64,000 nt of DNA from Candidatus Altimarinota bacterium (lineage in GTDB: Bacteria > Patescibacteriota > Gracilibacteria > BD1-5 > UBA6164). Location: assembly GCA_027066455.1 (NCBI GenBank), contig JAMONT010000083.1:4052-68051 (forward strand), given 5' to 3'. Shown here piece by piece: positions 9,215 through 48,448 of this stretch (the stretch's first letter is position 1; the number at the start of each line of letters is the position of its first letter). The position numbers and the translations under genes were made by a program. The notes below the pieces were generated by a model. That model saw only the letters and a program-made list of their open reading frames with translations. It was not told the DNA's origin and did not search any database.

Positions 9215-10765
9215 TTAAACTTCTTCCTCTTTTTTTCTAAAACTAAGAGCTTCTAAAATATGTTTTGTTTCTATATTTTTTATCTCTTCTAAATCAGCAA
9301 TAGTTCTAGATAATTTTAAAATTCTGTAATAAGCTCTTGCTGATAAATCCATTGAAGCAACAGCTTGTTTTAATATTTTTTCACTTTCTGAATCTAAAAT
9401 ACAAAACTTATTAATTTGTTTTGTTTGCATTTCAGCATTAAAAGTTATTTTAGTATTTTCAAATCTTTTTAATTGCAAAATTCTAGCTTTTTCAACTCTT
9501 GTTTTAATACTTTCACTTGTTTCTCTTCAAGAGTAATCTTCTCAAGTTTTAAATTCTTCTGTTTTCACTTTTGGAACTTCTATAAAAATATCTATTCTAT
9601 CAATTAATGGTCAAGAAAGTCTTGATCTGTAATTAGAAATTTGTCTAATTGAACAAATACATTCTTTATCTGGGTCAGTTAAAAAACCACAAGGGCAAGG
9701 ATTCATTGCTCAAACTAAAATAAAATTAGCAGGATAAGTATAAGTTGCATTTACTCTGTTTACTGTAATCATTCAGTCTTCTAAAGGTTGTCTTAAAACT
9801 TCTAAAACTGATTTTTCAAATTCCAAAATTTCATCTAAAAATAAAACTCATTTATGAGATAAAGAAATTTCTCCAGGTTTAGCATTAGTTCAACCTCAAA
9901 TTATACTTATAGCAGAAGCTGTATGATGAACTGTTCTAAAAGGTCTTTTTGTAATAATTGGATTATCATGAGTTAAAAGTCCAGAAATAGAATAAATTTT
10001 ACTGATTTCTATAGCTTCATTTATACTTAATTCAGGTAAAATTCCAGAAAAACTTTTTGATAACATAGTTTTTCAACTTCAAGGAGGTCATTCCATAATT
10101 ATATTATGTCCTCAAGCTGCTGCTATTTCTAAAGCTCTTTTTGCATGATTTTGACCAATTACATATTTAAAATCAAATTTTGAATTTTCAGAAAACTTAT
10201 TTGCTTTTTTTGAAAAATCTTTGAAATCAAGTTTTGGTGTTATATCTAAAGCAATTTCAGAGTTTAACATTTTTATAACTCAAGTCAAATTTTTTACTCT
10301 AATAATTTCAATTCAAGGAATTATTGAAGCTTCTGGAGAATTTTCATATGGTATAAAAATTCTTTTAAAACCTTTTTCTTTTGCTTTTATAGTTGCTGGT
10401 AAAATAGAATTTACTTTTCTTAAATCTCAGTTTAAAGATAATTCTCAAATAAAAATTGATTCAGAAATTAATTTTTCTTCTATTTCTCCAGAATTAAGTA
10501 AAATTCCTATAGCAATAGGAAAGTCAAAACTAGGCCCAGTTTTTTTAATGTCAGCTGGAGCTAAATTTACAATAATTCTATTGGTTGGAAGTTTTTTTCA
10601 AGAATTTTTCAAAGCAGACCTAATTCTTTCCTTAGATTCTTGAACAGATTGATCAGGAAGTCCAACTATTTTAAAAGCTGGCATTCAATTATTTATATCA
10701 ACTTCTATTTCTATTATTTCTGAATTTAATCAATTTACAGTTATAGAATGTATTTTTGAAATCAT
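9215..10765 (-). CDS. comM: Mg-chelatase-like AAA+ protein ComM/YifB
   Basis: 517 codons. GPPGSGKTML Walker [12 protein letters not shown] Walker B, MNPCPCG motif. The C-terminus equals track ORF 9215-9478. Confidence 0.9.
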
Positions 10766-10825
10766 AATTTTTATTTTTTTTAAGAAAATATTAAGGAAAT
10801 TTTATAAAATAAAAAACCTCATAAT

Positions 10826-10872
10826 GAAGCCTCTTTCCTTTTGACCAAAAGGAGAGAATTCAAGAGAGGAAT
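10826..10872 (+). repeat. GC-rich palindromic element, intergenic copy
   Basis: gaagcctctttccttttgaccaaaaggagagaattcaagagaggaa. Ends about 7 nt from the stop codon (10879-10881) of the minus-strand gene. Confidence 0.75.
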
Positions 10873-10878
10873 ATTATT

Positions 10879-11280
10879 TTATAAACCTAATTGTGCTTTT
10901 ATATCATCAATAGCTCAAGCATCTTGTTGTTCAACTTCTTTTTTTGCTTTTTCAGCAATATAAACTTCTCCTAATTGAATCCATTCTTTTTTTTGTTTTG
11001 TTAATAACTTTTTTATATCTTCTGGATGTTTTCCAGCTAATTCTCTGAATTTTTGTCTTTCTTCAACAAAAACTTTTGTAAGTTCATCAAATTGAAATTG
11101 AGAAAGTCCAGGTTGTTCATCATTTTTAGCAACTGCATCAATAACTCTTTTTTTCTCATCAGTATTCAAAGAAAGAGAATGTTTTAATAAATCACAAAAT
11201 TCTTCCACATTAACAACAACATCATCTCTATGATTTTTTAATAATGCTAATATTATTTCATTAACTTCTATATCTGTCAT
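10879..11280 (-). CDS. Hypothetical protein
   Basis: Track ORF 10915-11280 extended through one TGA to TAA at 10879-10881 (adds GAIDDIKAQLGL). Confidence 0.6.
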
Positions 11281-11363
11281 AATTTTACTTGATTAAAAAA
11301 TATTTTATACCTTTTTATAATATGAAAAAAAGCTAAATAGTCAAAAAAATTTTAAAAAAAAAA

Positions 11364-11410
11364 TTCCCCACTTGAATTCTCCCCTTTTGTAAAAAAAGGG
11401 AAGAGGCACA
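11364..11410 (-). repeat. GC-rich palindromic element, intergenic copy in reverse orientation
   Basis: The reverse complement reads tgtgcctcttccctttttttacaaaaggggagaattcaagtggggaa. Confidence 0.7.
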
Positions 11411-11427
11411 TAATTAATTACAATAAT

Positions 11428-11475
11428 TTGTAGCCCCCTTCCTTTTGACCAAAAGGAAGGGATTCAGGGAAGGAA
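11428..11475 (+). repeat. GC-rich palindromic element, intergenic copy
   Basis: tttgtagcccccttccttttgaccaaaaggaagggattcagggaaggaa. Ends 4 nt from the stop codon 11480-11482 of the beta-propeller gene. Confidence 0.8.
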
Positions 11476-11479
11476 TTTT

Positions 11480-13876
11480 TTATTTCATTTCAACATCAGA
11501 AATTTTTTCAAAAGTTTCCATATTATTTTCAAGTATTTTTTTATTTGAAATAGAATAAATATTATCTCAAATATATAAAGCTCTATTTATAAAAGAATCT
11601 CTTAATTGCCATCTTTTATTTGCTATATAAGTTCAAATACCAGAATCTTGATAACAATATTCAGGAATATAATTACTTTTTTGTGGACAATATTCTCTTC
11701 AATCAAGCAAAATTCTACATCTTTCTTTTTCTTCTTTTTGTTTTATAAAATCATCACATTTTACTTTTCTTTCATTTTCTAAAGCTTTATAATCAATATG
11801 ACTAATTCTTCATAATTTTTTTATTCCATAATCTTTATCTATTTTAATAGAATATAATCCTGCAAAAAAATCTATATTTTTATAAGAATCTTTATTTTCA
11901 TTTTTTGTAATTTCTACAGGTAAAAGTAAAGTTTTTTTATCTTTATTAAAAATAAACATTCTTGGATTATTGGTAGCTTCACTTCTACTTCCAGCATCTC
12001 ACATTGTCAAAGTGTGTAATTGTTTTACTTCTATAAAACCTTTTTTATCAGATTTTGAATTTTTAGGATTTTCACATTTTTGTACACATTGCATTGTGCA
12101 AATATCAGCTCAAGAAGGACAAGCAGAAGCACATTCATTTTTTACACAAGAACTAGGACAACTGTTAAAAGAAAATTGACTACATTCTTGACTTACACTA
12201 TTTGTTAATTTATCATAATTTATTTGGTATAAATCTAATTTTAATCATCATTGTCTAGTTCTTCAATTAGTTTCAAAAGTATCATAACCTAATCAAATTA
12301 TATGATTTTTATCATAAGGATGAAGATAACTTGAATAACCAGGAATTTTTAATTCTCAAATAACTTTTGGTTTAGATTCATCTTTTAAATCAATTACATA
12401 AAATGGGTCTATATCCATAAAAGTAACCAAAAATAATTTATCTCACATAAATCTAGAAGATTTGAAATTTTCATCTTTTCAAAGTCCTCAAAGACTTCAA
12501 AATAATTTCAGATTTTTATCTAAAATATAAACTCCTGTTTCTCTTTCAGGATATCTTTTTTGTGTAATAATTCTGAAATTATCTCATCTTTCATCCATAG
12601 AATATTGAGTCAAAGGATTTCAAGGAATAATTGTAGAAGTTTGATATTTTATATTATTTTTAGAAATATTCAATTTATGAATTAAAGAATTTTCTCAAGC
12701 CTCAAAATAAGGCATTATACAACGAGCAAAAGGTGGACAACTTACTTGATTATTATTGTAAAGTCTGTCTGTAATATAAAGATTTTTTAAACTCATATAA
12801 ATTTCTGTAGTATTTCAAACAACAACTTTTGTTTTAACAGGAGCATCAGAAATTTCTGTATCTACAACTGAAATAATATTATAACTTGGAGAAAAATCAT
12901 ATTTTTTTAAAGTATCTTTTGTTGGCAAAGAATATTCTATTTCACTACAATTGGCAACATTTCAAGAACTTATATTAAAAGGAAATTTTTTTCATTTTAA
13001 AACTAAATTTTGTTTAGAAGAATTTTTTGTTCAATTTACTTCAATTTTTCTAGGAATTATTCCATCTCTAGGAATTATTATATCATCAACATTTTTAAAA
13101 TTATGAAAAGGAATATTAAAAGAATTAGAAGAAATTACATAAAGATATTTTCCTATTTTTCTTGATTTTGCTAATCTTCCATCAACAACATAAAGTTTTA
13201 ATAATTTTGGTTTTACAATATTTGTAGTATCAAAAACTATAACATAAGTTTTATCTTGATAACTTCTCCAATAATTATTTTTTATTTTATTATATCTAGA
13301 ATATCAACTTGATAAAATAGTTAATCTATTTTTTCCTAAATATAAAACTGGAGAATTAAAATTTTTTGGAATTTTTATTTTTTTAATAATTTTTAGTTTA
13401 TTTGAAACAGAAGTTATATAAACAGCTTTATTTTTAGAATTATAATAATAAATATATTTTCCATCAGTTTTTACTATTTCAGATTCATCAACTCAATCTA
13501 CTTGAGTATTTGTTCTTGAAAAATTTCAATCACTAGTTCTAGAAGCAGAAGTAGGAACAGCATTTCAAGTAGATTCAAGTTGTAGAAGAGTTTCACTAAA
13601 ATCATCAGATGCTATAGTATCTATCATTCTATGTTTATAATTATATGAATATTTATTTTTATTTAATTTCCAGTAAGTTTTTATATATTTTTCCATTACT
13701 GATTCTAGATTTTCACAAGATTTGAAAGTTTGCAATTTAAAACTTTCTGAAATTTCAGAATTTTCTTGTTTATCTAAAGCATCAATGATTTGATTATCAT
13801 CAATTTGAGCAAAACTTGTAGAACTAATTATAAATAAAGCCAAAGCACCCAAAAAAACTTTTTTGATATTTGCCAT
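11480..13876 (-). CDS. Secreted beta-propeller domain protein (PF09826-like)
   Basis: Signal peptide MANIKKVFLGALALFIISSTSFAQ. Motifs TNTQVDGVDESEIVKTDGKYIYY and SSRFMGDKLFLVTFMDIDPFYVIDLKDESKPKVIGELKIPGYSSYLHPY. In frame with track ORF 13565-13909. ATG 13876 is preferred over the track TTG start. Confidence 0.75.
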
Positions 13877-13908
13877 AATTTTTTTAATTAAAAAATAAGA
13901 TATTCTCA

Positions 13909-13970
13909 ATTATAAGAATATCTTTTTTTAAAGCAAATTTTTAATGTGAAGATTTTGTGAAGAAATTTTT
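13909..13970 (-). promoter_or_regulatory. Conserved promoter cassette, copy 1
   Basis: Minus-strand reading: TTCACA-aaatc-TTCACA, then TTGCTT (-35), a 16 nt spacer, and TATAAT (-10, 13909-13914). About 33 nt upstream of ATG 13876. Confidence 0.6.
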
Positions 13971-13984
13971 TAGCAAATTTTAAA

Positions 13985-14869
13985 TTATTCTCAAGGAATT
14001 TCAAAGTCTCATTTTGCAATAATATATCAATTTCAACTTTTTATATAAAATTTATATTTTCAATTTTTTTCAATTTTTATACTATTTTCTCATAAAAGAA
14101 CAGAATGAAAAATTATTTTATCTTTTAATTTATAGGAAAGTATTTTTTTAGGTGTATTTACATTATAATAATAAAATATTCTATTATTTTCATCATAATC
14201 AGTCATACACATAAGATTTTTAATTGTATAATTTAATAAAAGATTTTTTCAATTAATTTCAAAAGTATATTTTAACATTGAATAAGGTTCTAATTGTCAA
14301 CATAAAATTTTAATATCATCAACACCTGAATTTGCAGCAATTTCAAAAACAAAACCTCTAGTAGCTAAAGCATCATAATCAGTAAATTTTTTAACATCTC
14401 ATTTTTTTTCAACTGCAAAATTTACAACTTGTTCTTGCCAAGTTTCTTTTTTTGTAGAATCATAAGAATATTTATCACCATAACTGGCTTTTACAATCAT
14501 TGCAACTGCTTCTGCTTTTGTTATATTTTTTTCAGGATTAAATTTTTTATTTTTGGCTATTAAATTATTATCTATTAAAGCTTCTATTGTATAACAAGCC
14601 CAAGAATTTGGATTTGTAGCAGAAACATCTGTAAATAAATTATCACATTTTTCCTTTTTTTCTATTCAAGCAAGTCATCTAGCCACAACAGCTATTTCTT
14701 GTCTTAAAACAAAATCATCAAGTTTATATTTTTCAGGATTTTCTAAATGGTTATTTATTATATTTTTTTCAGCTAAAAAATTGGCAGAAAGAATTTCTGA
14801 TTTAGTATATGCATTTGTATTATTTATAATAAATAAAGAAAAAATTATAAATAAAAATATTTTTCTCAT
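13985..14869 (-). CDS. Secreted protein with N-terminal SLH-like (S-layer homology) repeats
   Basis: Signal peptide MRKIFLFIIFSLFIINNTNA, then LSANFLAEKNIINNHLENPEKYKLDDFVLRQEIAVVA and a second ...ITKAEAVAMIVKA segment. 295 codons, in frame with track ORF 14675-14869. Confidence 0.55.
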
Positions 14870-14905
14870 AAAAATTTTAAAATTAAAAAAATAAATTACT
14901 TAATT

Positions 14906-14967
14906 ATTATAAGTAATTTATTTTTTTAGCAAATTTTTAATGTGAAGATTTTGTGAAGAAATTTTTT
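14906..14967 (-). promoter_or_regulatory. Conserved promoter cassette, copy 2
   Basis: Same TTCACAaaatcTTCACAttaaaaaTTTGCT core (14928-14967). -10 TATAAT at 14906-14911. About 37 nt upstream of ATG 14869. Confidence 0.6.
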
Positions 14968-14980
14968 AAAAAATTTATTT

Positions 14981-17662
14981 CTACATTCATATAAGTAAAA
15001 AAATAACTTCTTCTTCCAATTTTTTATTTAAATATTTAAATAAATTTTCATATTTTTTATGAGTTAAAATCAAAATATTTATTTTTGAAATAATTGATTT
15101 TAATTTAGCTATTTTTTGTTTATTAGTATAATTATATTTATCCATTTTTAAAATAAATTTTTTAATTATAGAATCTATTTTATCTTTTAATTCATTTGTC
15201 ACTTCAATTCCATTTTCTTTTTTCTTTTTACAATCTACAGAATAAGTATCTTTTTCTTTTTCACTACAATAATTATCTATCTTTACACATTTTGAAAAAT
15301 TATCAGTTCATTTAACTTTTACTTTTGCTAAACCTGAAATACAAGATTTATTACTATTTTTAGGAATATAAACAGTTTCTTCTCAATATTCCCTTATTCA
15401 AGTATATTTACAATTTTTAACATTAAAGGAATTCGGTAAGAAATGATTTACTTGTTTTTTTGTTTCAAAATTGTAAGAATAAACAGGATATTCCATACAT
15501 TCATAAGCTCATTTTTGAGTGTTAATAGTTTCTATTTTATCATATCAAATCACACAATTTTTAGAATTATAAATTTTTTTAGTTCAAGAAGGAACATCAT
15601 AGTTTTTACATCATACTTTACAATCTACAGAATTATATTTGTTTTCATTTGTAGAACATTTTCAGTCACCAATTTTTACACACATTTTATCTCATTTTCA
15701 ATCAGAAAGTGCTACTAAAGAATAAGCACATTCTCTTTTTATTGTTAAAGGTAATAAACTATAAAATTTTGTATTTAAACTTCAAAATTCTTTAACTTTT
15801 CAAGTATAATCATTTGAGTAATAAGAAAAAGAATAATTACTGTATTTCATAAATTTTTCAAATTCTTTACTTTCAAAAAAATAATCAAATATTTCTTCTT
15901 TATAAGTATTATTATATTTTTCTAAAAATTTTTTCCAATTTTGTAATTCATAACTAGTAATTTGTCTTTTTAATCAAAATTTATAAAGATTTTTTATAAA
16001 TTGTTCTTTTGAAATATTTTGAGTTAAGACATTATCTTGACTAACAAATAATTCTCAATTTGCTGCATCTTTTAATATGTCTTTTATTATACTGTTTTGT
16101 ATTTGATTTTCAGAATATTTTTTTGATCAAAATATTTTTTTATTTTGATAATAATTTATTTCTGTTAAAGAAGGCATTCTCCACAAAACTTCTTTATAAA
16201 TATAATTTATAAATTTTATATTTTCATCTTTTTCTTCTTTTATATCAGGTTTATTTATTTCTTCAATTAATTTATTATTTGGAGTGAAAACTGTCCAAAA
16301 ATTTCAGTTGTTACATAAACTTCCAGAATAATTTGCTGGATATTTTCAACTTTTTCAACTTCTAAGTTTATTAGTTAATTCTTGTAAACTAGAAGAAATA
16401 TACATTCAATGTTGGTCTTTTAATCATTCATATTTTGTTCAAATAAATTTTGAATTATAACATTTTTTTGGAGAATTTATATAAGAATAATCCATTTTAT
16501 ATAAATCACTTTTAAAAGTTCATAAATTTTTTATAACTTTTTTATTTTTTATTTTCCAATCAATTAAATCAAATTTTATTAAAGAAACTTTATTAGAATT
16601 TGAATTAATAGCTCAAGAAGGGTGAGCAAAACTTAAAGAATATAATCAATATAATTTTATATTATTTACTTTACAAATTTTTTGATAAATATTACAATTT
16701 ACTGAATTAGTTCAGACTTTTTTCATTTCACATCAATTTTCAGCTATTGGTTTTGGTTTACATACTGAATTTTCAACATCAATAAGATTATTGTTAAAAG
16801 TTCATTCAATATAACAATTTACTTTTGTTTTTCACTTAAATTGTTTAACCCATTCATCTGATATTTTTCTTGATAATCATCATACAAAATCTCAATATTT
16901 TCAAGGATTTATATTTTTAGGTGGAAATAAAAATAATTTCATTTTTTTTGTACTTCATTGACAAATTAAATTAAAATTAGTTTGGTTTATGTTAGAGGAA
17001 ATTCATCAAATATGACCTCATTGATTTAAAATTCTATAGCTATTTTTTTCCTTACTATAAGGGTTATTATATTCATCATTCAAAACTTTTAATTTTATAT
17101 TAACTCAAGAATTTCAAATAATTATTTCTCAAGAAATTGGTTTTATAGAAGTTTTTATATTTTTATAAAAATCTTCACATTTTCATTTAAACAAAAATTT
17201 TGAATTTTTTCTTTCCATTTCACATTTATTTCAAAAAGTTGTTCTTTCTCAATTATAAATTCAGCAAACAGGTATATATTCTTTTGTACAAGCGTTCAAA
17301 GAATTTTCTAAAACTTTTATTTTTAATTGTTTTGAAGTTTTATACCCATTAGTATCATCACAACTAATTCATAAATTCATACTATTTATTTTAGAAAAAT
17401 TTTTATGTTTAGCTGTTAAAGTATAAACTCAATTTGTTCAAGTTCTAAGAATATCTGTCCAATATTTTCATTCTGAAATTTTAATATGATTTCAAAAAGT
17501 GTAACAATCTTTAAATCATTTTGTTTCCCATTTTACTTGAAATTTATCTCATTCAAAAACTGTTTTAGGTCAAGTAAAATTTAAAATTGTATTTTCAGCA
17601 TAACTATTATTTATACTAAAAAAACTAAAAATTAATATAAATATTAAAAATCTTTTTTTCAT
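14981..17662 (-). CDS. Large secreted cysteine-rich protein with a Kazal-like domain and DUF4214-like segments
   Basis: 894 codons. Signal peptide MKKRFLIFILIFSFFSINNSYA. Kazal-like ACTKEYIPVCGIYNGERTTFGNKCEMERKNSKFLFKGKC (17174-17293). The C-terminus equals track ORF 14987-15202. Confidence 0.65.
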
Positions 17663-17695
17663 AAAAATTTAAAATTAAAAAAATAAATTATTCTC

Positions 17696-17765
17696 ATAAT
17701 AAGAATATCTTTTTTTTAAGCAAATTTTTAATGTGAAGAAATGTATGGGGTTTGTGGAAATTTTT
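17696..17765 (-). promoter_or_regulatory. Conserved promoter cassette, copy 3 (distal box diverged)
   Basis: TTCCACAaaccccatacatttcTTCACAttaaaaaTTTGCTT, 16 nt spacer, TATTAT (17696-17701). About 34 nt upstream of ATG 17662. Confidence 0.5.
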
Positions 17766-17770
17766 AAAAA

Positions 17771-19273
17771 TTATTTTTCAACACTAACAAAATTTTCAAC
17801 TATTTTATCCCACTTTTCTATTAAGTTAATATTGTCTTTATCCTTTAAAATTTTATATAAATATTCTTTATTAGCATACTTTTTATAAATTTCATCATAT
17901 TTATTATGGCCTTTATCTGATTCAGGTCATTTTCATTTAAGATTTCATACAAAAATAAAATCTGTTCAATTTATTTTTTTAATATATATTTTTTGCCACT
18001 TTTCTCCATAACCACCACATCCTCATCATTCTGTAATAATTCAAAACTCAAATTGACTTAAATTATTTTCTTTACTTTCACAGTATACATATTTATTTCA
18101 TTTTATTAGTGGTCAATCACATTTATATGAAATAGTTTTAGGGATTTTATTAGAATATAAACCACAAACATTTTTTATTCAATCTAAAGTTGTGATAAAT
18201 AAATCATTATAAAAATATTTTCATTCTAATCATTCTTCTAATTTATCTTTTTCTAATTTGAATATTTTTCATCAAATTGTTATTTCTTTGAATTTTTCTT
18301 TTATATTTAAAAATATTATTTTTTCTTTTTTTATAAGATTATTTCAAATATTTACTTTTAAAAATAATTTAATTTCTCAATTTTCTAATAATTCATAATT
18401 TTCTAATTTCTCCCATTTTATAGGCAAAACATTATTTCAAAAATCTTCTATTTTAGAATTGTCTTCATATATTTTTTTTATTTCCAAATTATTTGAAATT
18501 TTAAAAAGAGAAATATTTTCTTGTCATCATCAAATAGTAAAATAAATTCAACTTTTTCATTTTTTTATATTTTCTATAATTCAGTTATGTTTTATTTTTT
18601 TTAAAGTATTTGAATTTAAATTATAAATATAATTTGTTGTTTCTGTAAAAAAATTTTCTCAATTAGTAGAAAACAAAAGGATATTTTTATATTTTCAAAG
18701 TATTTTTATTTCAGAAAAAATAAAGTCTCATACTCACATTAATTTTTCAGCAAATTTTTTTTCTAAAATTATATTTTGAGTTTTATTCTTAAAATCATAT
18801 AAAACAAATTTAATTTTTATTTCTTCTATAAAATCTTTTTTATTATTTAAAAATTTTTTAGATAAATCTTCAGTATAAATATACTTATTTTCTCTAGTTC
18901 TATAAAAATTTTTTCCTGTATTCTTCTCAAAAATAATTATTTTATAATCTCAATATTTTTTTTCTTTGACTATATTGAAGCTTAAATCATTTATTTTTAA
19001 AATTTCATTTATATAAAAGTGAATATAATTTAAAATCAATGATTTATTATTATTAGTTTTTTTTCAATTTTTCTCTATATATAAATTTATTTTTTCTAAA
19101 AATAAACTAGTTTTTTTTAATCAATCTGTTTCAATTTTTTTAAAAAAATAATTATTTAATATTTTTTGTATTTTTTCTTGTTTTTCTTTTTGTATTTCAG
19201 CATTAACTTGAAAATTTCAAAAACTAAAAAATAAACTAAAAACTAAAATTAGACTTAATAAAACTTTTTTCAT
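17771..19273 (-). CDS. Hypothetical secreted protein
   Basis: 501 codons with TGA=Gly. Signal peptide MKKVLLSLILVFSLFFSFGNFQVNA. No family recognised. Confidence 0.55.
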
Positions 19274-19309
19274 AAAGATTTTAGGGTTAATGTAAAATAA
19301 GTTAACTAA

Positions 19310-19372
19310 AATATAGTCAACTTATTTTTTAAAGCAAATTTTTAATGTGAAGATTTTGTGAAGAATTTTTTT
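19310..19372 (-). promoter_or_regulatory. Conserved promoter cassette, copy 4
   Basis: TTCACAaaatcTTCACAttaaaaaTTTGCTT, 16 nt spacer, TATATT (19310-19315). About 37 nt upstream of ATG 19273. Confidence 0.6.
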
Positions 19373-19375
19373 AGA

Positions 19376-19568
19376 AAATTTATTTCTACATTCATATAAG
19401 TATAAGTAAAAAAATAACTTCAATTCCATTTTCTTTTTTCTTTTTACAATCTACAGAATTATATTTGTTTTCATTTGTAGAACATTTTCATTCACCAATT
19501 TTCACACACATTTTATCTCATTTTCAATCAGAAAGTGACATTAAAGAATAAGCACATTCTCTTTTTAG
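19376..19568 (-). pseudogene. Deleted remnant copy of the 3' end of the 14981-17662 gene
   Basis: Near-identical to about 14981-15012, 15203-15245 and 15621-15735 joined head to tail. Junctions lie at the short repeats acttc and caatctacagaat. No start codon or signal peptide found. Confidence 0.5.
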
Positions 19569-19656
19569 AGAAATTCACAACTCTTTTAAAAGTCTTTTGA
19601 AATTGTTTTTTATAAATATTTTACTACCATTTTTTATATACTTCCAAATATTTTTT

Positions 19657-20337
19657 TTAAATTTCTTTTATTTCTAAAACATAAAGTTTTTTATAAACTT
19701 CTTTTAAAATAAATTCTGATAATTTTTCAGATTTTTTTGCTGTAATAGTTATATTGATTTCTTGAAAGAAAAATGAAAAAATTTTGCTAGTTAAACTAAG
19801 TAAAAATTTATCTTTTCAATACATTTTTATCAATCTTTCAGTTAAAAGTGAAGAATATTCTATACTCAAAACATCAATAATATCTTCAACCCAAAGATTT
19901 ATTCTATTTTGAATTTCTGTATCAATAGTCAAATCATTAAATTCTTTTAATTCTTCTGAAATATAACTAAAATCTATTAATTCTTTTCATGATTTTATTC
20001 TGATTTTATCACTTATTGGTAAATAAATTAGAGATAAAAGTCAGATTAAAAAGTTGGAAGGATAACTTTCATCTAAACATGCAAAAAGGTCAGTTAATAA
20101 AAAATCATATTTTTTATTTTTTATTATTTTTATCAAAAAACTAGATAATAATAAATCACATTTTTTAGCTTTTGATTCATCTTTAATTGTTCTTTTTATT
20201 CAAGCTGCATCTTTTTTTGCTTTTTCAGAAGCCTTTTCAGATGCTTTTTCAGAAGCAGCATTTATTCAAGAATTAACTTGTCAATCTAGATTATTATCTG
20301 TACTTTCAAAGTTTGATTCTATATCTTCTAATCACAT
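19657..20337 (-). CDS. Hypothetical protein
   Basis: 227 codons, ATG 20337 to TAA 19657-19659 with TGA=Gly. N-terminal SEKASEKASEKAKK repeat. Confidence 0.5.
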
Positions 20338-20404
20338 ATTTTTTAAATTTAATTTATAAAATATTTTTTTTATTATATTTAAATAAATGTTTTTTACAAA
20401 AGTT

Positions 20405-23400
20405 TTAATCTTTTTTTTCAAATTTTATAGTTCAACCTTTTTTTACAAAATTTTCTAAAATACTTATATATTCATTATATTTTTCTTTATCTAAATCAGA
20501 ATGATAATTATTTTTAATATTTTCATAAACTGATTTTAATTCATCTGCTTCAAAATTATCTTTTTTTACTTGAGACAAAATAAGTTTTATAATTTGCATC
20601 AATTTTTTTGATCTCATTCTAGTTTTTACTCCAGTATTATCTTTGAAAACTACCCATTTATAAATACTAACATCAATATTTTTAATTTTTTTATTAACTG
20701 TTTTTTCTTTATCTTTCAAATTATCAAAACTAAATTCTGAAAGTAAATTATCTCAATATTTTTTTGTATATAAAGTAGAAATAATTATTAAAACAACTCA
20801 TAAAATTCAAAAAATAATATATCTTGAAGTTATATCTCAAACTTCCCAAACATCAAATAAAAATATTTTAGAGATAGTTAAAACTAAAAAATATAATCAA
20901 ATAGTTCTAAATTTTTGTAAATCTTTTTGAATTCAATAAATAAGTAAAACTGAAGCAATTAATCACCAATACAAAGTTAAAGAAAAATGTTCTAAATTAT
21001 TTTTAAAAATATCTAATACATAAATATTACTAACTAAAAATGCATAAATTCACAAAATAATTTTTAAAGTTAAATTAATTTTTTTATTTCAAATATTTTC
21101 TTCCTTTTCCAAAGGAAGTCCCGAAGGGGATGGATTATTGCTTTTTTTCCAAATAAAAATATTAAAAACTAAAATTCAAGTTACTAAATATTGCAATATT
21201 TTCAAATATTCTAAATTTCTAACTTCTAATGTAGAAAAAATATTATTTATATCTCAAATATGAAAAATAGAAAATCATAAAATAATTACTACAAAAACAT
21301 ATTTTAAAAAATTTGTATTCAATTTTGAATAAAAAAATCACAAAATTGTTATAAAAATAATTATCCCAAATTTACTCCATCAATTTCCATTACTAGGAAT
21401 TATTTCATATAATAAAATTCACATAATAATCATTCAAATTATATGTAAAATATAATGAATATTTTTTAAAACTATATTTTTTTCTTTTATACTCCTTCCC
21501 TTAGGCTTAAGGGAAGGTTGGGAAGGGTTAATTTCTTTTTCCTCTATAAAAAATAAATTTAAAATAAATGAAGCTAAAATTACTGAAAAACTAACTAAAA
21601 ATAAATAATTTTCTGATTTTACTTCATCAATTAAAATTCAAAATTGTGTTAATCAAATGAAAAATAAAATAGTTGCAGCAATAAATATTTTTTTAGAATT
21701 ATTTCTAGAGAAAATATAATACAAAATAGTTGCTTCAAAAAGCCAAACAGTTGTAATAATTTCTGGATATTTTGAAAATACAAAAACCATAGAAACAGAA
21801 AAAATTGAAATACTAATTCAAGCAAAAGTATAAAAAATATTTTTCAAACTTTCATCTTTTTTTACATTTTCTATTCAAATTTTTTGTATAAAAAAGTAAG
21901 CTTGTAAAAAATAAACAATTGCTAAAGCTAAAAAAGCAAATCATTCTATAACTCAAGGAAAATAAATTTCTCAATAATTATAAATTTGAAAAGAAATAAA
22001 TAATGCCGAAGCTACTACTCAAATAATTAAATTATAAAGATTTTGTTTTTCAAATAATCTTTTGTTTATAAAAGGTAAAACAAAATTAGAAATTGCAAAA
22101 ATAATTATTGCTATAATTGAAACTAAAAATAAAATTGAATTATTATTAGAAATTACTAAATATGGTGCAAAAGTTATTATTGTTCAAATTGTTCAAATAG
22201 GGAAGAGTGTAGATAAATCTTTTTTTGTTGAATAATAATAAGAAAAAAATAAAAATATAAAACTAGAAAATAAAATAGTAAAAAATTCTAAATTATTAAC
22301 ATTATTTAAATTTCAGATAATATTTAATTCTAAATTAAATAAAAATATAAAAAATCATAAAAATATAAAAAGAAAATATTTATAATAATTAGAAATATTT
22401 TTTTCTATAACTGAAAATCAAAGTAAAAATAATATTAAAAAAAGTGTTAAAGTGAAAGAAGAAAAAATTAAATCTCAAGAAAATAAAATTAAAATAATTA
22501 TTACAAAAGGAATAATAAATATAGAAAAAATTCCAGATTCCTTATCTTTTACAAAATTTTTCAAAAAATAAATACTAAAAGCAAATAATCATATCAAAGC
22601 AATATTATAAGCTAAAAAACTAAAAGTTTCAGATAAAAATCAAGAAGAATTAAATAAATTTAAAATTATAAAAAAATAAGTTCATAAAAAAATATATAAA
22701 ATATTTCAGCTAATATTATCTTTAGAAAAATTGTATGCTATTTTTATTGAAATAATACTTAAAATAATAGTAAAAATAATTTTTACACTCCAGCCAATTG
22801 AATCAGAAAAAGGTGCTGCAAAAAATAATAAATTTCAAAAAATAAAACTAATAATTAAAAGAGTTAAATTATTTTGTTTGTTAGCTAAGAATAAAGCTCA
22901 CAAACTTACAATAAAACTATATCAAACCAGAGTATAAGGTTCAGTTCCAGAAGTTCAAATTATAAAAGGATTTATGTATGCAAAAATAAATGAAAAAATT
23001 AAAAGAGTTTTTGATTTATAAATTAAAGAAGTTAAAATTCAAAGAATTGTATTTAAAATCAAAAATAAAAATGTTGTAGTTTCAGCAAAAAATATTTTAT
23101 TTCATCATATTAATAATTCATTTCATCATACTAAATGTCTTCAAGCTAAGATAACAGCATAATTTATCAAAATCCCTGTTCACATCAAAATAAGTCATTC
23201 TTGTTTATATTTTTTATGTAATTTTATTCAAGAAAAATAAATAATAAAACCAATAATTATTCAAATAACAACTCTTCAAATAGGTCAAATAATTTCCCAA
23301 ACATTTATTGCAAGTCATTTTAAAAAATATACAACCATTAAAAAAAGTAAAATTCATCATATTTTAGCTAAAATATTTGTAGAAAAAAAATTTTTTATAT

Positions 23401-23974
23401 ATGTTCAAAGTTTTTCAAAAAATATTTCAGTAGGACTTGATTCATAAAGTATTTTTTCTTTTGAAATTATTGTAGCCCCTTTCTCCCTATAAGGGAGAGA
23501 GGATTCAGGAGAGAGGGGATTTTCTTTTTTTATAGTTTCAAATCATTCATCTGGTAAATCATTAATTCCAATTTTTTCTTCTTCCAAAGATTTTGTTCAA
23601 AAACCAATTTTATCTAATTTAGTTTCAATATTTTCTTTTAATTCCAAAGATTTATATTTTATATCTTCATTTTTTAATTCATCTACTTTACTTTTTATTT
23701 TATCAATTTCTATATTTTCTTTTTTTTCATTTTTTACAAAACTATCATTATTTTTAGTTTTTTTATTTTCAATTGCATTTGCAAAAAATTCTAATCTTTC
23801 TTTTATAAAAGTACTAGAAAATAAACTTTTTTTTATAATTAAAATAAGAAAAATAGTAGTTATGAAAAAAATAAATTCTCATAAAAAATAAAAAAATCAT
23901 GAAAAAAATCCAATAATAACTATTCAAAGTATTATTGATATAACCCAAGCAAATCTATTTAGTAATTTAAACAT
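20405..23974 (-). CDS. DUF2339-like polytopic membrane protein (about 1190 codons)
   Basis: N-terminal TM helix plus coiled coil, then several dozen hydrophobic helices. The C-terminal soluble domain equals track ORF 20432-20719 plus GTIKFEKKD. Length is divisible by 3 and no TAA/TAG was met in manual translation. Confidence 0.65.
21100..21136 (+). repeat. GC-rich palindromic element, variant copy, in-frame in the DUF2339-like gene
   Basis: cttccttttccaaaggaag-tcccgaagggga-tggatt. Read on the minus strand as NNPSPSGLPLEKEE. Confidence 0.6.
21492..21529 (+). repeat. GC-rich palindromic element, diverged copy, in-frame in the DUF2339-like gene
   Basis: ctccttcccttaggcttaagggaaggttgggaagggtt. 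Read on the minus strand as NPSQPSLKPKGRS. Confidence 0.6.
23470..23519 (+). repeat. GC-rich palindromic element, consensus-like copy, in-frame in the DUF2339-like gene
   Basis: ttgtagcccctttctccctataagggagagaggattcaggagagagggga. Read on the minus strand as ENPLSPESSLPYREKGATII. Confidence 0.85.
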
Positions 23975-24019
23975 ATTTTTTTTATTAAGAATTATTTTAT
24001 AATTAAACTTTCCCTTTTT

Positions 24020-24067
24020 TGTAGCCTCTTTCTCCCCACAAGGGAGAGAGAATTCAAGAGAGAGGGA
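24020..24067 (+). repeat. GC-rich palindromic element, intergenic copy
   Basis: tgtagcctctttctccccacaagggagagagaattcaagagagaggga. Abuts the stop codon 24070-24072 of the TSP3-repeat gene. Confidence 0.8.
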
Positions 24068-24069
24068 AA

Positions 24070-25731
24070 TTATTTCAATTTTACAGCCATTTTGAATATT
24101 GCAATTCAGAAAAACACTATAACTAAAGACAAAAGTATCATAAAAATATTTTTATTTGATTCAAAAAATCTATCATCTTTTTTATCACAAACATCTCAAA
24201 TTCAATCCAAATCAATATCACTTTGAAGAGGATTATAATCATAAGGACAATTATCATTTTTTGCTAAAATTTTATCTAAATCAGAATCTTCACAAGCATC
24301 TCAAATCCCATTATTATCCGAATCTTTTTGAAGAGGATTATAAATATTTATACAATTATCTTTTATTCAACTTATTCAATCAGAGTCAGAATCTTCACAA
24401 ATATCTCAAACTCAATTTTTATTTTCATCAAGTTGATCAGAATTTTGAATATTTTTACAATTATCACAAACATCTCAAATTCCATCTTTATCAAAATCCT
24501 CTTGCTTAGGATTAGCCATTTCTTCACAATTATCTTGAGAATTAATTATTTTATCTCAATCTTTGTCATTTTCTTTTAAAAATTTTTCTTTTTCCTCAGT
24601 AACATCTCCAATTCAATTATTATTTTTATCTAATTGTCTTGGATTATAATAAATTGAATTATCACATTTATTTCAAATATTATCCAAATCATCATCTTTT
24701 TGAAGAGGGTTAGCAATATTTATACAATTGTCTAATTGATCAAAAATTCAATCAGAATCCTTATCAAATTCACATTTATCTCATACTCAATTTCTGTTTA
24801 TATCTTCTTGCTTAGGATTATAAACATTTATACAATTATCTTTTTTTCAAATTATAGAGTCTCAATCATCATCACTACACAAATCTCCAATTCAATCAGC
24901 ATTTTTATCAAATTGTTTTGGGTTAGCTATTTTTGGACAATTATCTTCTGAATCAGGAATTTTATCTAGGTCAAAATCTTCTACTTTATTTGGATTAAAA
25001 TTTGGATTTTCTTTTAATTCTAAAAAAATAGTTTTTGTATTTTTATTTAAATTATATTCTCAATAATTATTTTTTAAATTTATATAATTATTTTTACAAA
25101 TATTTTTAGCATAAGCTTTTATTTCTCAAATAGTTTTTACTAAATAAATATAATTTTTTGAAATAAATTTTAGTTCAAAAATTTTAATTTTTTCAGGAGG
25201 AGTAATATGTTTTACTGTTGTATTAAAAGAAATTTTTAAAAATTTGAAATCATAAGTGTTTAATTTTTTTTCTGGAACAAAAAAATATTTTTCTCAATCT
25301 TTAGAAATTTCAATATGAGCATTTCTATAATTTGCTTTATATTCAAAATTAAAATCAAAACTTCAAGCTTTTAATATTTTATCAAATTCTAAAAATATAG
25401 AATTTTTATTTTTTTCCTCATCATAAATTAAAAAAGTTTTATAATTTTCATCACTCAAATATTCTAAATTTCAAAATAAATTTTTTATTTTAAAATCCAA
25501 AATTCATCAATAATTTTTATATAATTTATGAGGAATAATTTTATTATCAGAAATAAAAGTATCTATTTTTTTTGTAGAATTTATTTTTAAAGTTCATTTT
25601 TCTTGTTTTAGAATTCAAAAAAATTCATAACAATTTTCTTTAAAATTTTCAGGAATTTTTTTGAATTCTTGTGCAAAACTAGAATTTATAAATAAAAAAA
25701 ATATTGAAATTAGAACTATTAATTTTTTCAT
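24070..25731 (-). CDS. Secreted thrombospondin type-3 (calcium-binding) repeat protein with C-terminal TM anchor
   Basis: 554 codons. Signal peptide MKKLIVLISIFFLFINSSFA. About eight DNCxxxxNPxQxDxDxDGIGDxCD repeats. C-terminal IFMILLSLVIVFFGIAIF helix. Confidence 0.8.
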
Positions 25732-25816
25732 AAAAAATATCTTTAAAAAATAATTATTTTAAGTATAATAGAAAATGTATTAAAATGCAAATTTTAAAAA
25801 AATATTAATAAAAAAA

Positions 25817-26470
25817 ATGAAAACACATATAATAACTATTTTTCCAGAAAGTTTTGAATCTTATTTTGGAACTTCAATTATAAAAAATTCTATAAATAAA
25901 AAATTATTTTTCCCAGTTTTTTATAAATTAAATGATTTTTCTACAAAAAATACTAGAAGGGTTGATTCAAAAGCTTATGGAATGCACGGACAAGTTATAG
26001 AAGCTGAACCTTTGAGTAAAGCTATAGAATTTATTTTTAAAAAAGTTTGAAAAAAAATTCCTGTTATTTATTTTTCTCCAGATTGAAATTTGTTAAAACA
26101 AAAAAAAGTAGAAAAATTTAGTGAAGAATTAAAAGAATTTATTATAATTTGTGGACATTATGAAGGAATTGATCAAAGAATTAGGGATTTGTATGTAACT
26201 CAAGAAATTAGTATTTGAGAATATATTATTTCTAGTTGAGAATTAGCAGCAATGGTTTTTTTAGATTCTTTAGTTAGAAATATTCCCTTAGTTTTAGGAA
26301 ATAAAAAAAGTTTAGAGGAAGATAGTTTTTCTGAAATTTTTGAATGAAAAAAGGAATATCCAATTTATACTAAGCCAAAAATTTTTAAAAATTTGCAAGT
26401 TCCAGAAGTTTTATTTTCTTGAAATCATAAACAAATAGAAATTTGGAAGAAAAAAAACTTGAAAAATTAA
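25817..26470 (+). CDS. trmD: tRNA (guanine37-N1)-methyltransferase
   Basis: Track ORF 25817-26050 continued through TGA codons. ...[14 protein letters not shown]...[24 protein letters not shown]...[11 protein letters not shown]. Confidence 0.9.
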
Positions 26471-27357: not shown

Positions 27358-27399
27358 TTTTTCAAAAAATTTTTATACAGAAATTTAAACAACAAAAAA

Positions 27400-27436
27400 A
27401 AATTTAACTAAAATTAATTTTAGTTAAATTTTTTTG
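27400..27436. terminator. Bidirectional terminator-like perfect palindrome
   Basis: aaatttaactaaaatt/aattttagttaaattt flanked by A and T runs, between convergent genes. Confidence 0.6.
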
Positions 27437-30572: not shown

Positions 30573-30619
30573 TGTAGCCCCTTTCCCTTTGGCTAAAGGG
30601 AAAGGATTCAGGATAGGGA
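30573..30619 (+). repeat. GC-rich palindromic element, intergenic copy
   Basis: tgtagcccctttccctttggctaaagggaaaggattcaggataggga, in the divergent intergenic region 24 nt upstream of ATG 30644. Confidence 0.8.
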
Positions 30620-30643
30620 TAATATTAAATTAAAAAACTACTT

Positions 30644-39989: not shown

Positions 39990-40000
39990 AAAAATCAAAA

Positions 40001-40033
40001 AAAATATTTTACAATTTGTAAAATATTTTTTTT
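40001..40033. terminator. Bidirectional terminator-like palindrome
   Basis: AAAATATTTTACAA/TTTGTAAAATATTTT plus a T run, between convergent pilC and the 40055-40837 gene. Confidence 0.6.
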
Positions 40034-40054
40034 ATTAGTTTTTTAGATTTTTTT

Positions 40055-44134: not shown

Positions 44135-44842
44135 TTAAATTTTATCAAAACAAATTATATATTCTTCAAATGAAGAATCTCTACAAGCCAAAGGTTTATA
44201 AGTTTTATAGCTTTTAAATCTTTTTTTTATTTCTTTTTGTAAATCTCTAAAATCTTCTCAAACAAAAACTTTTAAAAGCATATTTCATCATTTTTTCAAA
44301 AAATTATCAGAAAATTTACAAATTTCTATATTTAATTCAACAGAAGCATATTGGTCAACATCTTTTCTCCCAGTTGTATTTGGAGCAATATCACTAGTTA
44401 TTAAATCAAATTGTTTTAATTCATATTTTTTTGTAGCCCCTTTCTCCCCAATAGGGAGAGAGGATTCAGGAGAGAGGGCTTTTATTTTTTCTCTTAATTT
44501 TTCAAAATCAAAAATATCACAAACAATAGTTTTTATATTTTTATTTCAAAAACTTTTTATTTCCTTTAAATCAACTCAAATAATAATTTTATTTTTTACA
44601 ATTTGACTAATTAATTGCAAAAAACTACCAGGAGCTGCTCATATATCTATTATATTCATTTCTGGTTTTATAAGTTCAAATCTTTTTTGAATTTCTTCTA
44701 ATTTATAAATACTTCTTGCTCTAAAACCAGCTTTTTGAGCTGCAATTGCATAAGCATCTTTTACAACAAATTGTCACTTTTTTGTATTTCTTTTTCTATG
44801 AAAACCAGTTTTTCCTTTTCCATTTTTTATATTTTTTTTCAT
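44135..44842 (-). CDS. rlmE: 23S rRNA 2'-O-ribose methyltransferase RlmE/FtsJ
   Basis: ...RARSIYKLEEIQKRFELIKPEMNIIDIGAAPGSFLQ...DLITSDIAPNTTGRKDVDQ...NMLLKVFVGEDF... 236 codons including a 17-aa insert encoded by a repeat element. Confidence 0.85.
44432..44478 (+). repeat. GC-rich palindromic element, consensus-like copy, in-frame inside rlmE
   Basis: tgtagcccctttctccccaatagggagagaggattcaggagagaggg. Read on the minus strand as ALSPESSLPIGEKGAT. Confidence 0.85.
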
Positions 44843-48365: not shown

Positions 48366-48414
48366 AAATAAATTTTTTTATTAAAAAATATTAATTGCAT
48401 TATAACTAAAAAAT

Positions 48415-48448
48415 TAAAAAAATCTAGAAAAATTTCTAGATTTTTTTA
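48415..48448. terminator. Terminator-like hairpin (recurring module)
   Basis: aaaaaaATCTAGAAAaATTTCTAGATttttttt. The same hairpin core recurs at 3931-3948 and 4328-4347. Confidence 0.55.

What the first reader, a model, noticed from the sequence alone, without database searches (positions are those of the whole stretch)
13909..19372. One promoter cassette with a TTCACA-N5-TTCACA direct repeat drives four consecutive secreted-protein genes
A nearly identical module of about 60 bp precedes each of four minus-strand genes, with start codons at 13876, 14869, 17662 and 19273. Read on the minus strand it is AAAAATTTC-TTCACA-aaatc-TTCACA-TTAAAAA-TTTGCTT (-35), a 15-16 nt spacer, and TATAAT/TATTAT/TATATT (-10). 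The -10 lies 33-37 nt before the ATG. The hexamer direct repeat has an 11 bp period just upstream of the -35. This is the classic geometry of OmpR/PhoB-family response-regulator boxes, and the Bacillus PhoP box is TT(A/T/C)ACA-N5-TT(A/T/C)ACA. Copy 3 retains only the proximal box. The arrangement implies a co-regulated surface-protein regulon in an organism that presumably lives attached to a host cell.
Basis: partly seen in the sequence, partly recalled or inferred. Interest (0 to 1): 0.7.

Follow-up and report, generated by a model that had tools for sequence, protein, structure and literature searches.

The report
Shared regulator-box promoter for surface-protein genes
Four neighbouring secreted-protein genes of an uncultured Gracilibacteria genome each carry the same control cassette, and relatives have the same paired boxes in front of a lone sensor-kinase gene, so this is probably a small sensor-controlled gene set of a familiar type.

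Summary
Four exact copies of TTCACATTAAAAATTTGCT lie upstream of four minus-strand secreted-protein genes and nowhere else in the window. Three copies carry TTCACA-N5-TTCACA; the fourth keeps only the proximal box.

The layout is fixed: boxes, 7 nt, TTTGCT (-35), 16-17 nt, TATAAT-like -10, then 32-36 nt to the ATG. The same boxes and -35 precede orthologous genes in two related genomes. They also precede an orphan OmpR-partner-type sensor histidine kinase gene in four other Gracilibacteria lineages (GC 25-37%). This supports a response-regulator operator and a small regulon.

Each -10 sits in the loop of a 12-19 bp hairpin flanked by an A-run and a T-run. The stems covary, and wobble pairs favour the sense RNA. 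The hairpin appears only behind co-directional genes. It is most likely the upstream gene's terminator overlapping the promoter.

The regulator itself was not found, and no transcription start is mapped. The boxes match Firmicutes PhoP-type PHO boxes, but only two of the usual four are present.

Verdict: a new member of a known kind, of moderate interest.

The parts
13877..13975 (-). Cassette copy 1, upstream of g1. It lies between the stop of g2 (13985) and the ATG at 13876.
13945..13961 (-). Copy 1 direct repeat TTCACA-aaatc-TTCACA, the putative response-regulator operator.
   Evidence: conserved in L069, L105, L017
13932..13944 (-). Copy 1 TTAAAAA tract plus the -35-like TTTGCT (13937-13932).
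   Evidence: TAAAAATTT is invariant in 11 aligned instances
13897..13924 (-). Copy 1 hairpin: AAGATATTCTTA / taat / TGAGAATATCTT. A-run and T-run flanks extend it. The -10 TATAAT (13914-13909) is at the apex.
   Evidence: (-14.5 kcal/mol, z -3.4)
14870..14971 (-). Cassette copy 2, upstream of g2. Direct repeat 14957-14941, -35 14933-14928, -10 TATAAT 14911-14906.
14889..14923 (-). Copy 2 hairpin: AAATAAATTACTTA / taataat / TAAGTAATTTATTT. It reaches 19 bp with the A/T runs, and its stem sequence differs from copy 1.
   Evidence: (-17.0 kcal/mol, z -5.4)
17663..17770 (-). Cassette copy 3, upstream of g3. Only the proximal box is kept (17737-17732), with a relic distal TTCCACA at 17759-17753 after a 7-nt insertion. 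-35 17724-17719, -10 TATTAT 17701-17696.
17685..17712 (-). Copy 3 hairpin, a decayed version of the copy 1 stem with one A.A mismatch and G.U pairs.
   Evidence: (-11.6 kcal/mol, z -2.4)
19274..19376 (-). Cassette copy 4, upstream of g4. Direct repeat 19362-19346, -35 19338-19333, -10 TATATT 19315-19310.
19294..19328 (-). Copy 4 hairpin: AAAATAAGTTGACTA / tattt / TAGTTAACTTATTTT, with one G.U pair.
   Evidence: (-15.1 kcal/mol, z -5.0)
19377..19567 (-). Non-coding remnant of the 3' end of g3, duplicated upstream of copy 4. 19443-19567 matches 15617-15741 at 96%; 19417-19476 matches 15201-15260 at 88%; 19365-19405 matches 14960-15000.
11480..13876 (-). g1: secreted beta-propeller-domain protein, 798 aa (TGA=Gly).
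   Evidence: (PF09826, E 4.8e-114)
13985..14869 (-). g2: secreted protein with an SLH domain, 294 aa. It is absent from the close relative L069.
14981..17662 (-). g3: secreted Cys-rich protein with DUF4214, 893 aa. Only its C-terminal half is alignable with the L069 counterpart.
17771..19273 (-). g4: secreted protein, 500 aa, no Pfam match. It is absent from L069.
11354..11485 (.). G+C-rich inverted repeats just downstream of the g1 stop. They probably mark the end of the array and belong to a dispersed repeat family.
   Evidence: (I6)

Best explanation
Each cassette is a compact terminator-promoter junction.

(a) TTTGCT-N16/17-TATAAT is a sigma-70-type promoter for the gene downstream.

(b) The two 11-bp-phased TTCACA boxes end 7 nt upstream of the -35, roughly at -59 to -43. 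They are the operator of an OmpR/PhoB-family response regulator. That regulator is probably the partner of the conserved orphan sensor kinase found next to gltX in Gracilibacteria, whose own promoter carries the same boxes. It would co-activate the kinase gene and a variable array of secreted or surface proteins.

(c) The A-run/stem/loop/stem/T-run hairpin enclosing the -10 works as RNA. It is the intrinsic terminator of the co-directional upstream gene, so each gene becomes a separately controlled unit.

Shown: the sequence conservation, the fixed geometry, the hairpin covariation and the link to the kinase promoter.

Inferred: regulator binding, activation, the transcription start about 7 nt after the loop, and termination in the T-run.
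For: - There are four exact 19-mers, only upstream of these genes. A sequence model built from 11 instances finds no further copy in the window or in about 150 kb of related loci.
- The full cassette lies upstream of the g1 and g3 counterparts in L069 and upstream of the g1 orthologue in L105.
- Boxes plus WTAAAAATTTGC lie upstream of the kinase gene in L017 (GC 32%), L110 and L111-113 (GC 25%) and L074 (GC 37%). L076 has CTCACA-N5-TTCACA there.
- In three of these loci (L017, L075, L076) the kinase gene is divergent from gltX, so the boxes there cannot be a 3'-UTR element.
- The box-to-(-35) distance (7 nt) and the -35/-10 spacing (16-17 nt) are constant, while the -10-to-ATG distance varies from 7 to 36 nt. 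The element is therefore anchored to the promoter, not to the start codon.
- The kinase's best family similarities are all kinases that pair with OmpR-family regulators: BaeS, PnpS, WalK, PhoR.
- Hairpin: 10 of 10 cassette-type promoters behind a co-directional gene fold to -8 to -20 kcal/mol, with different stem sequences. All wobble pairs favour the sense RNA, which is more stable in 8 of 10 cases and by 2-6.5 kcal/mol wherever wobbles occur.
- The kinase promoters lack such a hairpin (-2.7 to -5.9 kcal/mol).
- Other terminators in this 21% GC genome have the same A-run/AT-stem/T-run look.
- Loops contain TATAAT, TATACT, TATTAT or TATATT at the correct distance from the -35, even where the -35 is TTGAAT.
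Against: - No response-regulator gene was found in the window or in the related loci held, and the kinase is never next to one.
- No transcription start or 3'-end data exist.
- L069 is so close to the window (intergenic DNA 96% identical) that its copies add little independent weight.
- The AT-rich stems have no G+C-rich core, unlike textbook terminators, and the tool's terminator scan did not call them.
- Promoter-like hexamers are barely above chance in this DNA (167 found against 145 expected).
- Distant g1 orthologues (L070, L072, L073) keep the promoter and hairpin but not the boxes.
- Only the window lineage shows the boxes on surface-protein genes.
Confidence: 0.55

Rival explanations
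1. The boxes are true PHO boxes. A PhoP/PhoR-type system would switch on the surface-protein genes and the kinase gene under phosphate limitation.
For: - TTCACA-N5-TTCACA fits TT(A/T/C)ACA with a 5-bp spacer (own knowledge of the Bacillus PhoP consensus).
- The EMSA-tested pstS PHO boxes of Lacticaseibacillus paracasei read tttacaCAATCtttaca, the same frame and spacer as TTCACAcAATCTTCACA in L069 and L105 (PMC11870197).
- PnpS and PhoR models are among the kinase's best hits.
- All three allowed third-base variants of the repeat are enriched in phage genomes.
Against: - There are two boxes, not the four described for Firmicutes PHO promoters.
- A -35-like hexamer is retained.
- No pst, pho or phosphatase genes were recognised among the regulated genes or in the window (by inspection).
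- All kinase hits are far below the curated cut-offs, and BaeS and WalK score as well as PhoR.
Confidence: 0.2
2. The hairpin acts on the promoter itself rather than as a terminator. It could be a DNA cruciform that exposes or hides the -10 as supercoiling changes. Alternatively it could be a 5'-leader stem-loop that stabilises or attenuates the mRNA made from a start site further upstream.
For: The -10 hexamer is consistently at the apex of a perfect AT-rich palindrome. The pilin-like gene at 52645, whose neighbour is divergent, also has TTTGCTTTAAAAA followed by a palindrome centred on TATGAT.
Against: - Wobble pairs are tolerated only in the sense-RNA orientation, which argues against a DNA cruciform.
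- No acceptable -35/-10 pair lies upstream of the hairpin, by inspection.
- The hairpin is absent from the kinase promoters, which have the same boxes and -35.
- A T-run follows every stem.
Confidence: 0.12
3. The repeats are recombination or duplication scars, or a small mobile cassette boundary, copied along with shuffled surface-protein genes and having no regulatory role of their own.
For: - Copies 2 and 4 share about 45 nt of extra flank and fragments of the 3' end of g3.
- g2 and g4, each with its own cassette, are missing from the close relative L069.
- The upstream genes differ between L069, L070 and L105.
Against: - The boxes are identical while the adjoining hairpin stems have diverged with compensating changes.
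- The same boxes sit upstream of a single-copy, syntenic kinase gene in lineages of 25-37% GC.
- Orientation relative to the downstream gene is the same in all 12 instances.
- There are no terminal inverted repeats and no other copies.
Confidence: 0.06
4. The repeat is bound by some other widely conserved factor rather than a two-component regulator, for example DnaA acting as a transcription factor, or a nucleoid protein.
For: The same 19-mer frame is enriched in many unrelated phage genomes. ATCTTCACA shares TNCACA with the DnaA box TTATCCACA.
Against: It has two or three mismatches to the DnaA box. The dnaA upstream regions held (L075, L076) show no cluster of either motif. Direct 11-bp phasing is the hallmark of winged-helix regulator dimers (PMC4832192).
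Confidence: 0.05

Closest known systems
Firmicutes PhoP PHO boxes (Bacillus subtilis; Lacticaseibacillus paracasei pstS)
   Same: Hexamer TT(A/T/C)ACA, an 11-bp period and even the spacer cAATC (tttacaCAATCtttaca; PMC11870197). They lie just upstream of the core promoter, and the two-component genes themselves are in the regulon.
   Different: Here there are two boxes rather than four, a -35-like TTTGCT and an invariant TAAAAATTT tract are retained, the regulated genes are surface proteins of unknown function, and no PhoP or PhoR orthology was established.
Mycobacterium tuberculosis PhoP / MtrA direct-repeat operators
   Same: A TCACA-containing 7-bp motif repeated with a 4-bp spacer (11-bp period), bound by a tandem winged-helix dimer (PMC4832192).
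   Different: The flanking bases differ (TCACAGC against TCTTCACA), the host is high-GC, and there is no link to a terminator hairpin.
WalR (YycF) boxes TGTWAH-N5-TGTWAH controlling cell-wall and secreted proteins
   Same: A direct repeat with a 5-nt spacer. The regulon consists of secreted or cell-surface proteins, and WalK is among the kinase's best family hits.
   Different: The reverse complement here is TGTGAA, so position 4 is G rather than A/T. The WalR consensus is recalled from memory and was not tested.
Intrinsic (Rho-independent) terminators overlapping a downstream promoter in compact genomes
   Same: A stem-loop plus T-run directly after a co-directional gene. The look matches other terminators in this window.
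   Different: The -10 hexamer is placed in the loop and the 5' arm fills the -35/-10 spacer. The stems are almost pure A/T.

Membership tests
OmpR/PhoB-family response-regulator operator | Two or more similar 6-7 bp motifs in direct orientation with a 10-11 bp centre-to-centre distance | tested here: met
   TTCACA-N5-TTCACA is exact in 3 window copies, and the 11-bp period holds in 10 of 11 aligned instances; window copy 3 keeps only the proximal box.
OmpR/PhoB-family response-regulator operator | Fixed register relative to the core promoter | tested here: met
   The proximal box ends 7 nt before TTTGC in the window, L069, L105, L017, L110 and L111. The distance to the ATG varies from 7 to 36 nt after the -10.
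OmpR/PhoB-family response-regulator operator | Operator present at the promoter of the system's own genes (autoregulation) | tested here: met
   The same boxes lie upstream of the orphan HisKA/HATPase kinase in L017, L110, L111-113 and L074, with a variant in L076. They are not seen in L075.
OmpR/PhoB-family response-regulator operator | A regulator with receiver and winged-helix domains encoded in the genome | tested here: inconclusive
   tblastn with E. coli PhoB (sequence recalled from memory) found nothing in the window or in 10 related loci. Whole genomes were not available.
OmpR/PhoB-family response-regulator operator | Demonstrated binding and regulation | not testable with these tools
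   Needs EMSA or DAP-seq and expression data.
Bacillus-type PHO box (PhoP regulon) | TT(A/T/C)ACA hexamers with a 5 +/- 2 bp spacer | tested here: met
   TTCACA, spacer 5. Compare PMC11870197.
Bacillus-type PHO box (PhoP regulon) | Four phased hexamers (two dimers) in the core binding region | tested here: not met
   Only two boxes are present. The positions 11 bp further on either side do not match, by inspection.
Bacillus-type PHO box (PhoP regulon) | Association with phosphate-scavenging genes (pst, phoA/D, phn) | tested here: not met
   The regulated genes are Beta_propel, SLH, DUF4214 and an unknown. No pst or pho genes were recognised in the window (by inspection). pstS promoters of these genomes were not examined.
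Sigma-70-type promoter | -35-like and -10-like hexamers 16-18 nt apart, at a plausible distance from the start codon | tested here: met
   TTTGCT-N16/17-TATAAT, TATTAT or TATATT. Other genes of the window have a -10 about 30-35 nt before the ATG. The geometry is kept in L070, L072 and L073.
Sigma-70-type promoter | Mapped transcription start | not testable with these tools
   No RNA data.
Intrinsic terminator | Stable stem-loop followed by a T-run, just downstream of a co-directional gene | tested here: met
   10 of 10 instances, -8.4 to -19.7 kcal/mol. The hairpin is absent where the cassette is not preceded closely by a co-directional gene.
Intrinsic terminator | G+C-rich stem | tested here: not met
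   The stems are almost entirely A/T and were not called by the consensus scan. Other likely terminators of this 21% GC window are equally AT-rich.
Known RNA family (Rfam) | Match to a curated covariance model | tested here: not met
   No relevant hit at E <= 1 in 10000-26000.
Mobile element / integron-like cassette site | Terminal inverted repeats, dispersed copies, or a recombinase nearby | tested here: not met
   There are only four copies, all in one orientation upstream of genes. No recombinase gene was called in the array itself; the wider window was read by inspection only.

The most novel reading that the evidence does not exclude
A two-component regulon conserved across Gracilibacteria, with an orphan sensor kinase and an unlinked regulator. 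Its PHO-box-like operator (TCTTCACA-nAA-TCTTCACA-WTAAAAATTTGC) would drive a rapidly diversifying, cassette-like array of surface proteins used in the episymbiotic lifestyle. Each cassette would fuse the terminator of the previous gene with the next promoter, placing the -10 in the terminator loop, so that genes could be gained, lost or swapped as insulated plug-in units. The same operator word is over-represented in many unrelated phage genomes, which suggests that phages tap the same class of host signal.
Probability: 0.25. Interest if true: 0.6.

Novelty: new member of a known kind. Interest (0 to 1): 0.45.

Why it matters
Almost nothing is known about gene regulation in candidate-phyla-radiation bacteria, because they are uncultured and use an altered genetic code.

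This cassette gives a concrete and testable cis-element. It links one conserved sensor kinase to a hypervariable set of secreted proteins that probably mediate contact with the host or prey cell. It can be used to scan Gracilibacteria genomes for the regulon and to pick the regulator for binding assays.

The mechanism itself is conventional: a winged-helix direct-repeat operator, a sigma-70 promoter and an intrinsic terminator. The value therefore lies in the organism and in the compact terminator-in-promoter layout, not in a new principle.

Tried and rejected
- Exact 18-mer scans of genome contigs and metagenome contigs gave 22 and 46 single hits. All but L017 are chance: several lie in the coding sequence VHIKNLR of OmpR-family regulator genes, and L027 is unrelated.
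- Rfam found nothing relevant.
- The consensus promoter/terminator scan is uninformative in 21% GC DNA.
- tblastn for a response regulator or kinase in the window was negative.
- The DnaA-box idea found no supporting clusters.
- Alternative promoter readings were rejected. Using TTCACA as the -35, or TAAAAA as the -10, does not give acceptable spacing in most copies (inspection).
- A palindromic repressor operator was rejected because the palindrome sequence differs between copies within one genome.
- Literature searches for Gracilibacteria promoters, regulators or kinases found nothing on this element.

Full report
**Organism and genes.** The window has 21% G+C, and long reading frames appear only if TGA is read as a sense codon. 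TGA falls at invariant glycines: the GlmS N-terminus reads MCGI and the patatin motif reads GGGxxRG. This points to code 25. The best protein matches are named Candidatus Gracilibacteria. On the minus strand lie four consecutive genes whose products have signal-peptide-like N-termini:
- g1, 11480-13876, Beta_propel (PF09826), 798 aa
- g2, 13985-14869, SLH domain, 294 aa
- g3, 14981-17662, DUF4214, 893 aa
- g4, 17771-19273, no family match, 500 aa

They are not paralogues of one another.

**The observation.** TTCACATTAAAAATTTGCT occurs exactly four times, once upstream of each gene. It has no other match in the window even with three mismatches. Copies 1, 2 and 4 carry TTCACAAAATCTTCACA. Copy 3 keeps the proximal box and has a relic TTCCACA 21 nt upstream, after a 7-nt insertion. 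The layout is: boxes, TTAAAAA, TTTGCT, 16-17 nt, TATAAT/TATTAT/TATATT, then 32-36 nt to the ATG. Other genes of the window also have a -10-like hexamer about 30-35 nt before the ATG.

In every copy the -10 hexamer lies in or at the apical loop of a hairpin whose arms are preceded by an A-run and followed by a T-run. Folding energies are -11.6 to -17 kcal/mol, with z-scores of -2.4 to -5.4 against shuffles. The stems differ in sequence between copies:
- copy 1: AAGATATTCT
- copy 2: AAATAAATTACTTA
- copy 4: AAAATAAGTTGAC

The box region, by contrast, is identical in all copies, so the stem is constrained as a structure and the boxes as a sequence.

**Relatives of the surface-protein genes.** Orthologues of g1 are common in Gracilibacteria.
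- L069 (GCA_054003655.1) has the full cassette upstream of the g3-like gene and of g1.
- L105 (GCA_054037935.1; g1 67% identical) has it upstream of g1, with a new compensated stem AAGATACTT/AAGTATCTT.
- L070 keeps TTTGCT, the A-run, a hairpin with yet another stem (AAGATAGT/ACTATCTT) and a TATAAT loop, but has no boxes.
- L072 and L073 (g1 about 52-54% identical) have TTGAAT-N16-TATACT, with the TATACT again at the apex of a different hairpin followed by a T-run.
- L071 has neither a hairpin nor boxes, and only a 50-nt gap to the upstream gene.

The promoter-in-hairpin layout is therefore older than the boxes, and the -35/-10 spacing is kept even when both hexamers change. L069 is a very close relative: the g1-g0 intergenic DNA is 96% identical and ComM is 91% identical. 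Its copies are thus weak independent evidence.

**The kinase link.** The only meaningful hit of the public 18-mer scans was L017, a Gracilibacteria genome of 32% G+C. There TTTCTTCACAtAATCTTCACATTAAAAATTTGCa lies 30 nt upstream of a sensor histidine kinase gene and is divergent from gltX. This kinase is conserved and syntenic: it sits divergently beside gltX in three loci (L017, L075, L076), with gltX a few kb away in L074, is followed by a roughly 300-aa secreted protein in most of them, and is never next to a response regulator. Its upstream region carries:
- TTCACCcaaaaTTCACAATAAAAATTTGCA in L110
- TTCACTcaaaaCTCACAATAAAAATTTGCA in L111-113 (both GC 25%)
- GTCACGaaaaaATCACAATAAAAATTTTGG in L074 (GC 37%)
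- CTCACAaacaaTTCACA in L076 (GC 40%)

In an alignment of 11 instances, TCAC of box 1, CACA of box 2 and TAAAAATTT are invariant. Each kinase promoter has a -10-like hexamer 16-17 nt after TTTGC(A), while the distance to the start codon ranges from 7 to 20 nt. None has a strong hairpin (-2.7 to -5.9 kcal/mol). The kinase's best family similarities are all kinases that pair with OmpR-family regulators, though all are below the curated cut-offs. A sequence model of the element finds no further copies in the window or in the roughly 150 kb of related loci held. It is therefore a specific operator, not the general promoter of these genomes.

**Interpretation of the hairpin.** It is present in all ten cassette-type promoters that closely follow a co-directional gene, and absent from the kinase promoters. 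Its non-Watson-Crick pairs are G.U or U.G in the sense orientation. As a result the sense RNA is more stable than the antisense RNA in 8 of 10 cases, by 2-6.5 kcal/mol where wobbles occur. Likely terminators elsewhere in the window (27396-27435, 39996-40034, 48413-48450) have the same A-run/AT-stem/T-run form. The simplest reading is that the hairpin terminates the upstream gene, and that the next promoter has been packed into it: the 5' arm in the spacer, the -10 in the loop, and the start site in the 3' arm or T-run. Termination and the start site are inferred, not shown.

**Which regulator family.** The 11-bp direct repeat is the signature of winged-helix tandem dimers (PMC4832192). The hexamer and even the spacer match Firmicutes PHO boxes; the pstS site of L. 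paracasei reads tttacaCAATCtttaca (PMC11870197). But only two boxes are present, a -35 is retained, and none of the regulated genes has a recognisable phosphate function. I therefore file the element as an OmpR/PhoB-type operator and leave the PhoP assignment as a rival at about 0.2. No regulator gene was found in the sequence available.

**Evolution of the array.** Copy 4 and its 5' flank duplicate copy 2 together with two fragments of the 3' end of g3. g2 and g4 are absent from L069. Only the C-terminal half of g3 aligns with its L069 counterpart. g1 is 73% identical, although the flanking DNA is 96% identical. The genes upstream of g1 differ in L070 and L105. The cassettes therefore bound a fast-changing set of surface-protein genes. 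Recombination between identical cassettes may help the turnover, but the conservation of the boxes at the single-copy kinase gene argues that they are functional and not scars.

**Verdict.** The promoter-plus-regulator-box reading is supported by comparative evidence but remains unproven. This is a new member of a known kind in a poorly known phylum, of moderate interest.

Noticed in passing
IMG/VR loci L077-L104, L114-L190 (e.g. L081:10899-10917, L083:1403-1421, L090 both ends): The exact frame TCTT[C/T/A]ACA-nAA-TCTT[C/T/A]ACA occurs in 28, 39 and 38 phage contigs. Composition-matched shuffled-unit controls give 1, 3 and 6. For the 28 TTCACA-variant contigs (the only set checked for this), the matches lie almost always outside long ORFs. 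In L081 and L083 they lie 8-9 nt upstream of a canonical -35/-10 pair, and L081 also has a LexA box next to them. L090 carries 3-4 units in both inverted termini. This looks like a widespread operator word, possibly PHO-type, used by phages.
   Followed up: partly
window 10830-10870, 11350-11395, 11435-11480, 24025-24065, 30580-30620, 63577-63620; inside genes at 23475-23520, 44436-44480, 51631-51675 (approximate; core matches): A family of G+C-rich palindromic elements of about 45 nt (gcccctttctccc...gggagagaggattcaggagagaggg) occurs in this 21% GC genome. Some copies are intergenic. At least three are inserted in frame in coding regions, where they read ...SPESSLP..EKGA.. in the products. 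This is reminiscent of Rickettsia palindromic elements.
   Followed up: partly
window 11480-19273 versus L069:1407-7374: The surface-protein genes diverge far faster than their surroundings. g1 is 73% identical in protein, yet the adjacent intergenic DNA is 96% identical and ComM is 91% identical. The N-terminal half of g3 is unalignable, and g2 and g4 are absent from the relative.
   Followed up: partly
window 19377-19567: A non-coding remnant of the 3' end of g3 (two fragments, 88-96% identical to 15201-15260 and 15617-15741) lies upstream of cassette copy 4.
   Followed up: yes
window 13964-13981: An extra partial copy of the -35 region (AAAATTTGCTAAAAAA) lies just upstream of cassette copy 1, straight after the g2 stop. 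It was picked up weakly by the sequence model (13.1 bits).
   Followed up: no
window 52570-52644 and 25732-25816: Two other surface-protein genes have TTTGC-type -35 regions resembling the cassette but without TTCACA boxes. The 1403-aa pilin-like gene at 52645 has TTTGCTTTAAAAA followed by a palindrome centred on TATGAT. The thrombospondin-repeat gene at 24070-25731 has AAAATTTGCA.
   Followed up: no
L017:4700-6085, L074:135-1493, L075:10001-11389, L076:10001-11374, L110:4239-5597: There is a conserved orphan sensor histidine kinase in Gracilibacteria, often divergent from gltX and in most loci followed by a roughly 300-aa secreted protein of unknown family. No response regulator lies within 10 kb in any of five lineages. 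In L017 and L074 the -10 lies only 7 nt before the start codon, which suggests a leaderless mRNA.
   Followed up: partly
loci L011, L012, L024, L040, L063, L065, L068: Several chance hits of the 18-mer TTCACATTAAAAATTTGC in unrelated genomes appear to fall in the winged-helix coding region of OmpR-family regulator genes, where it would encode (V)HIKNLR. This is a coincidence worth knowing when scanning for the motif.
   Followed up: no
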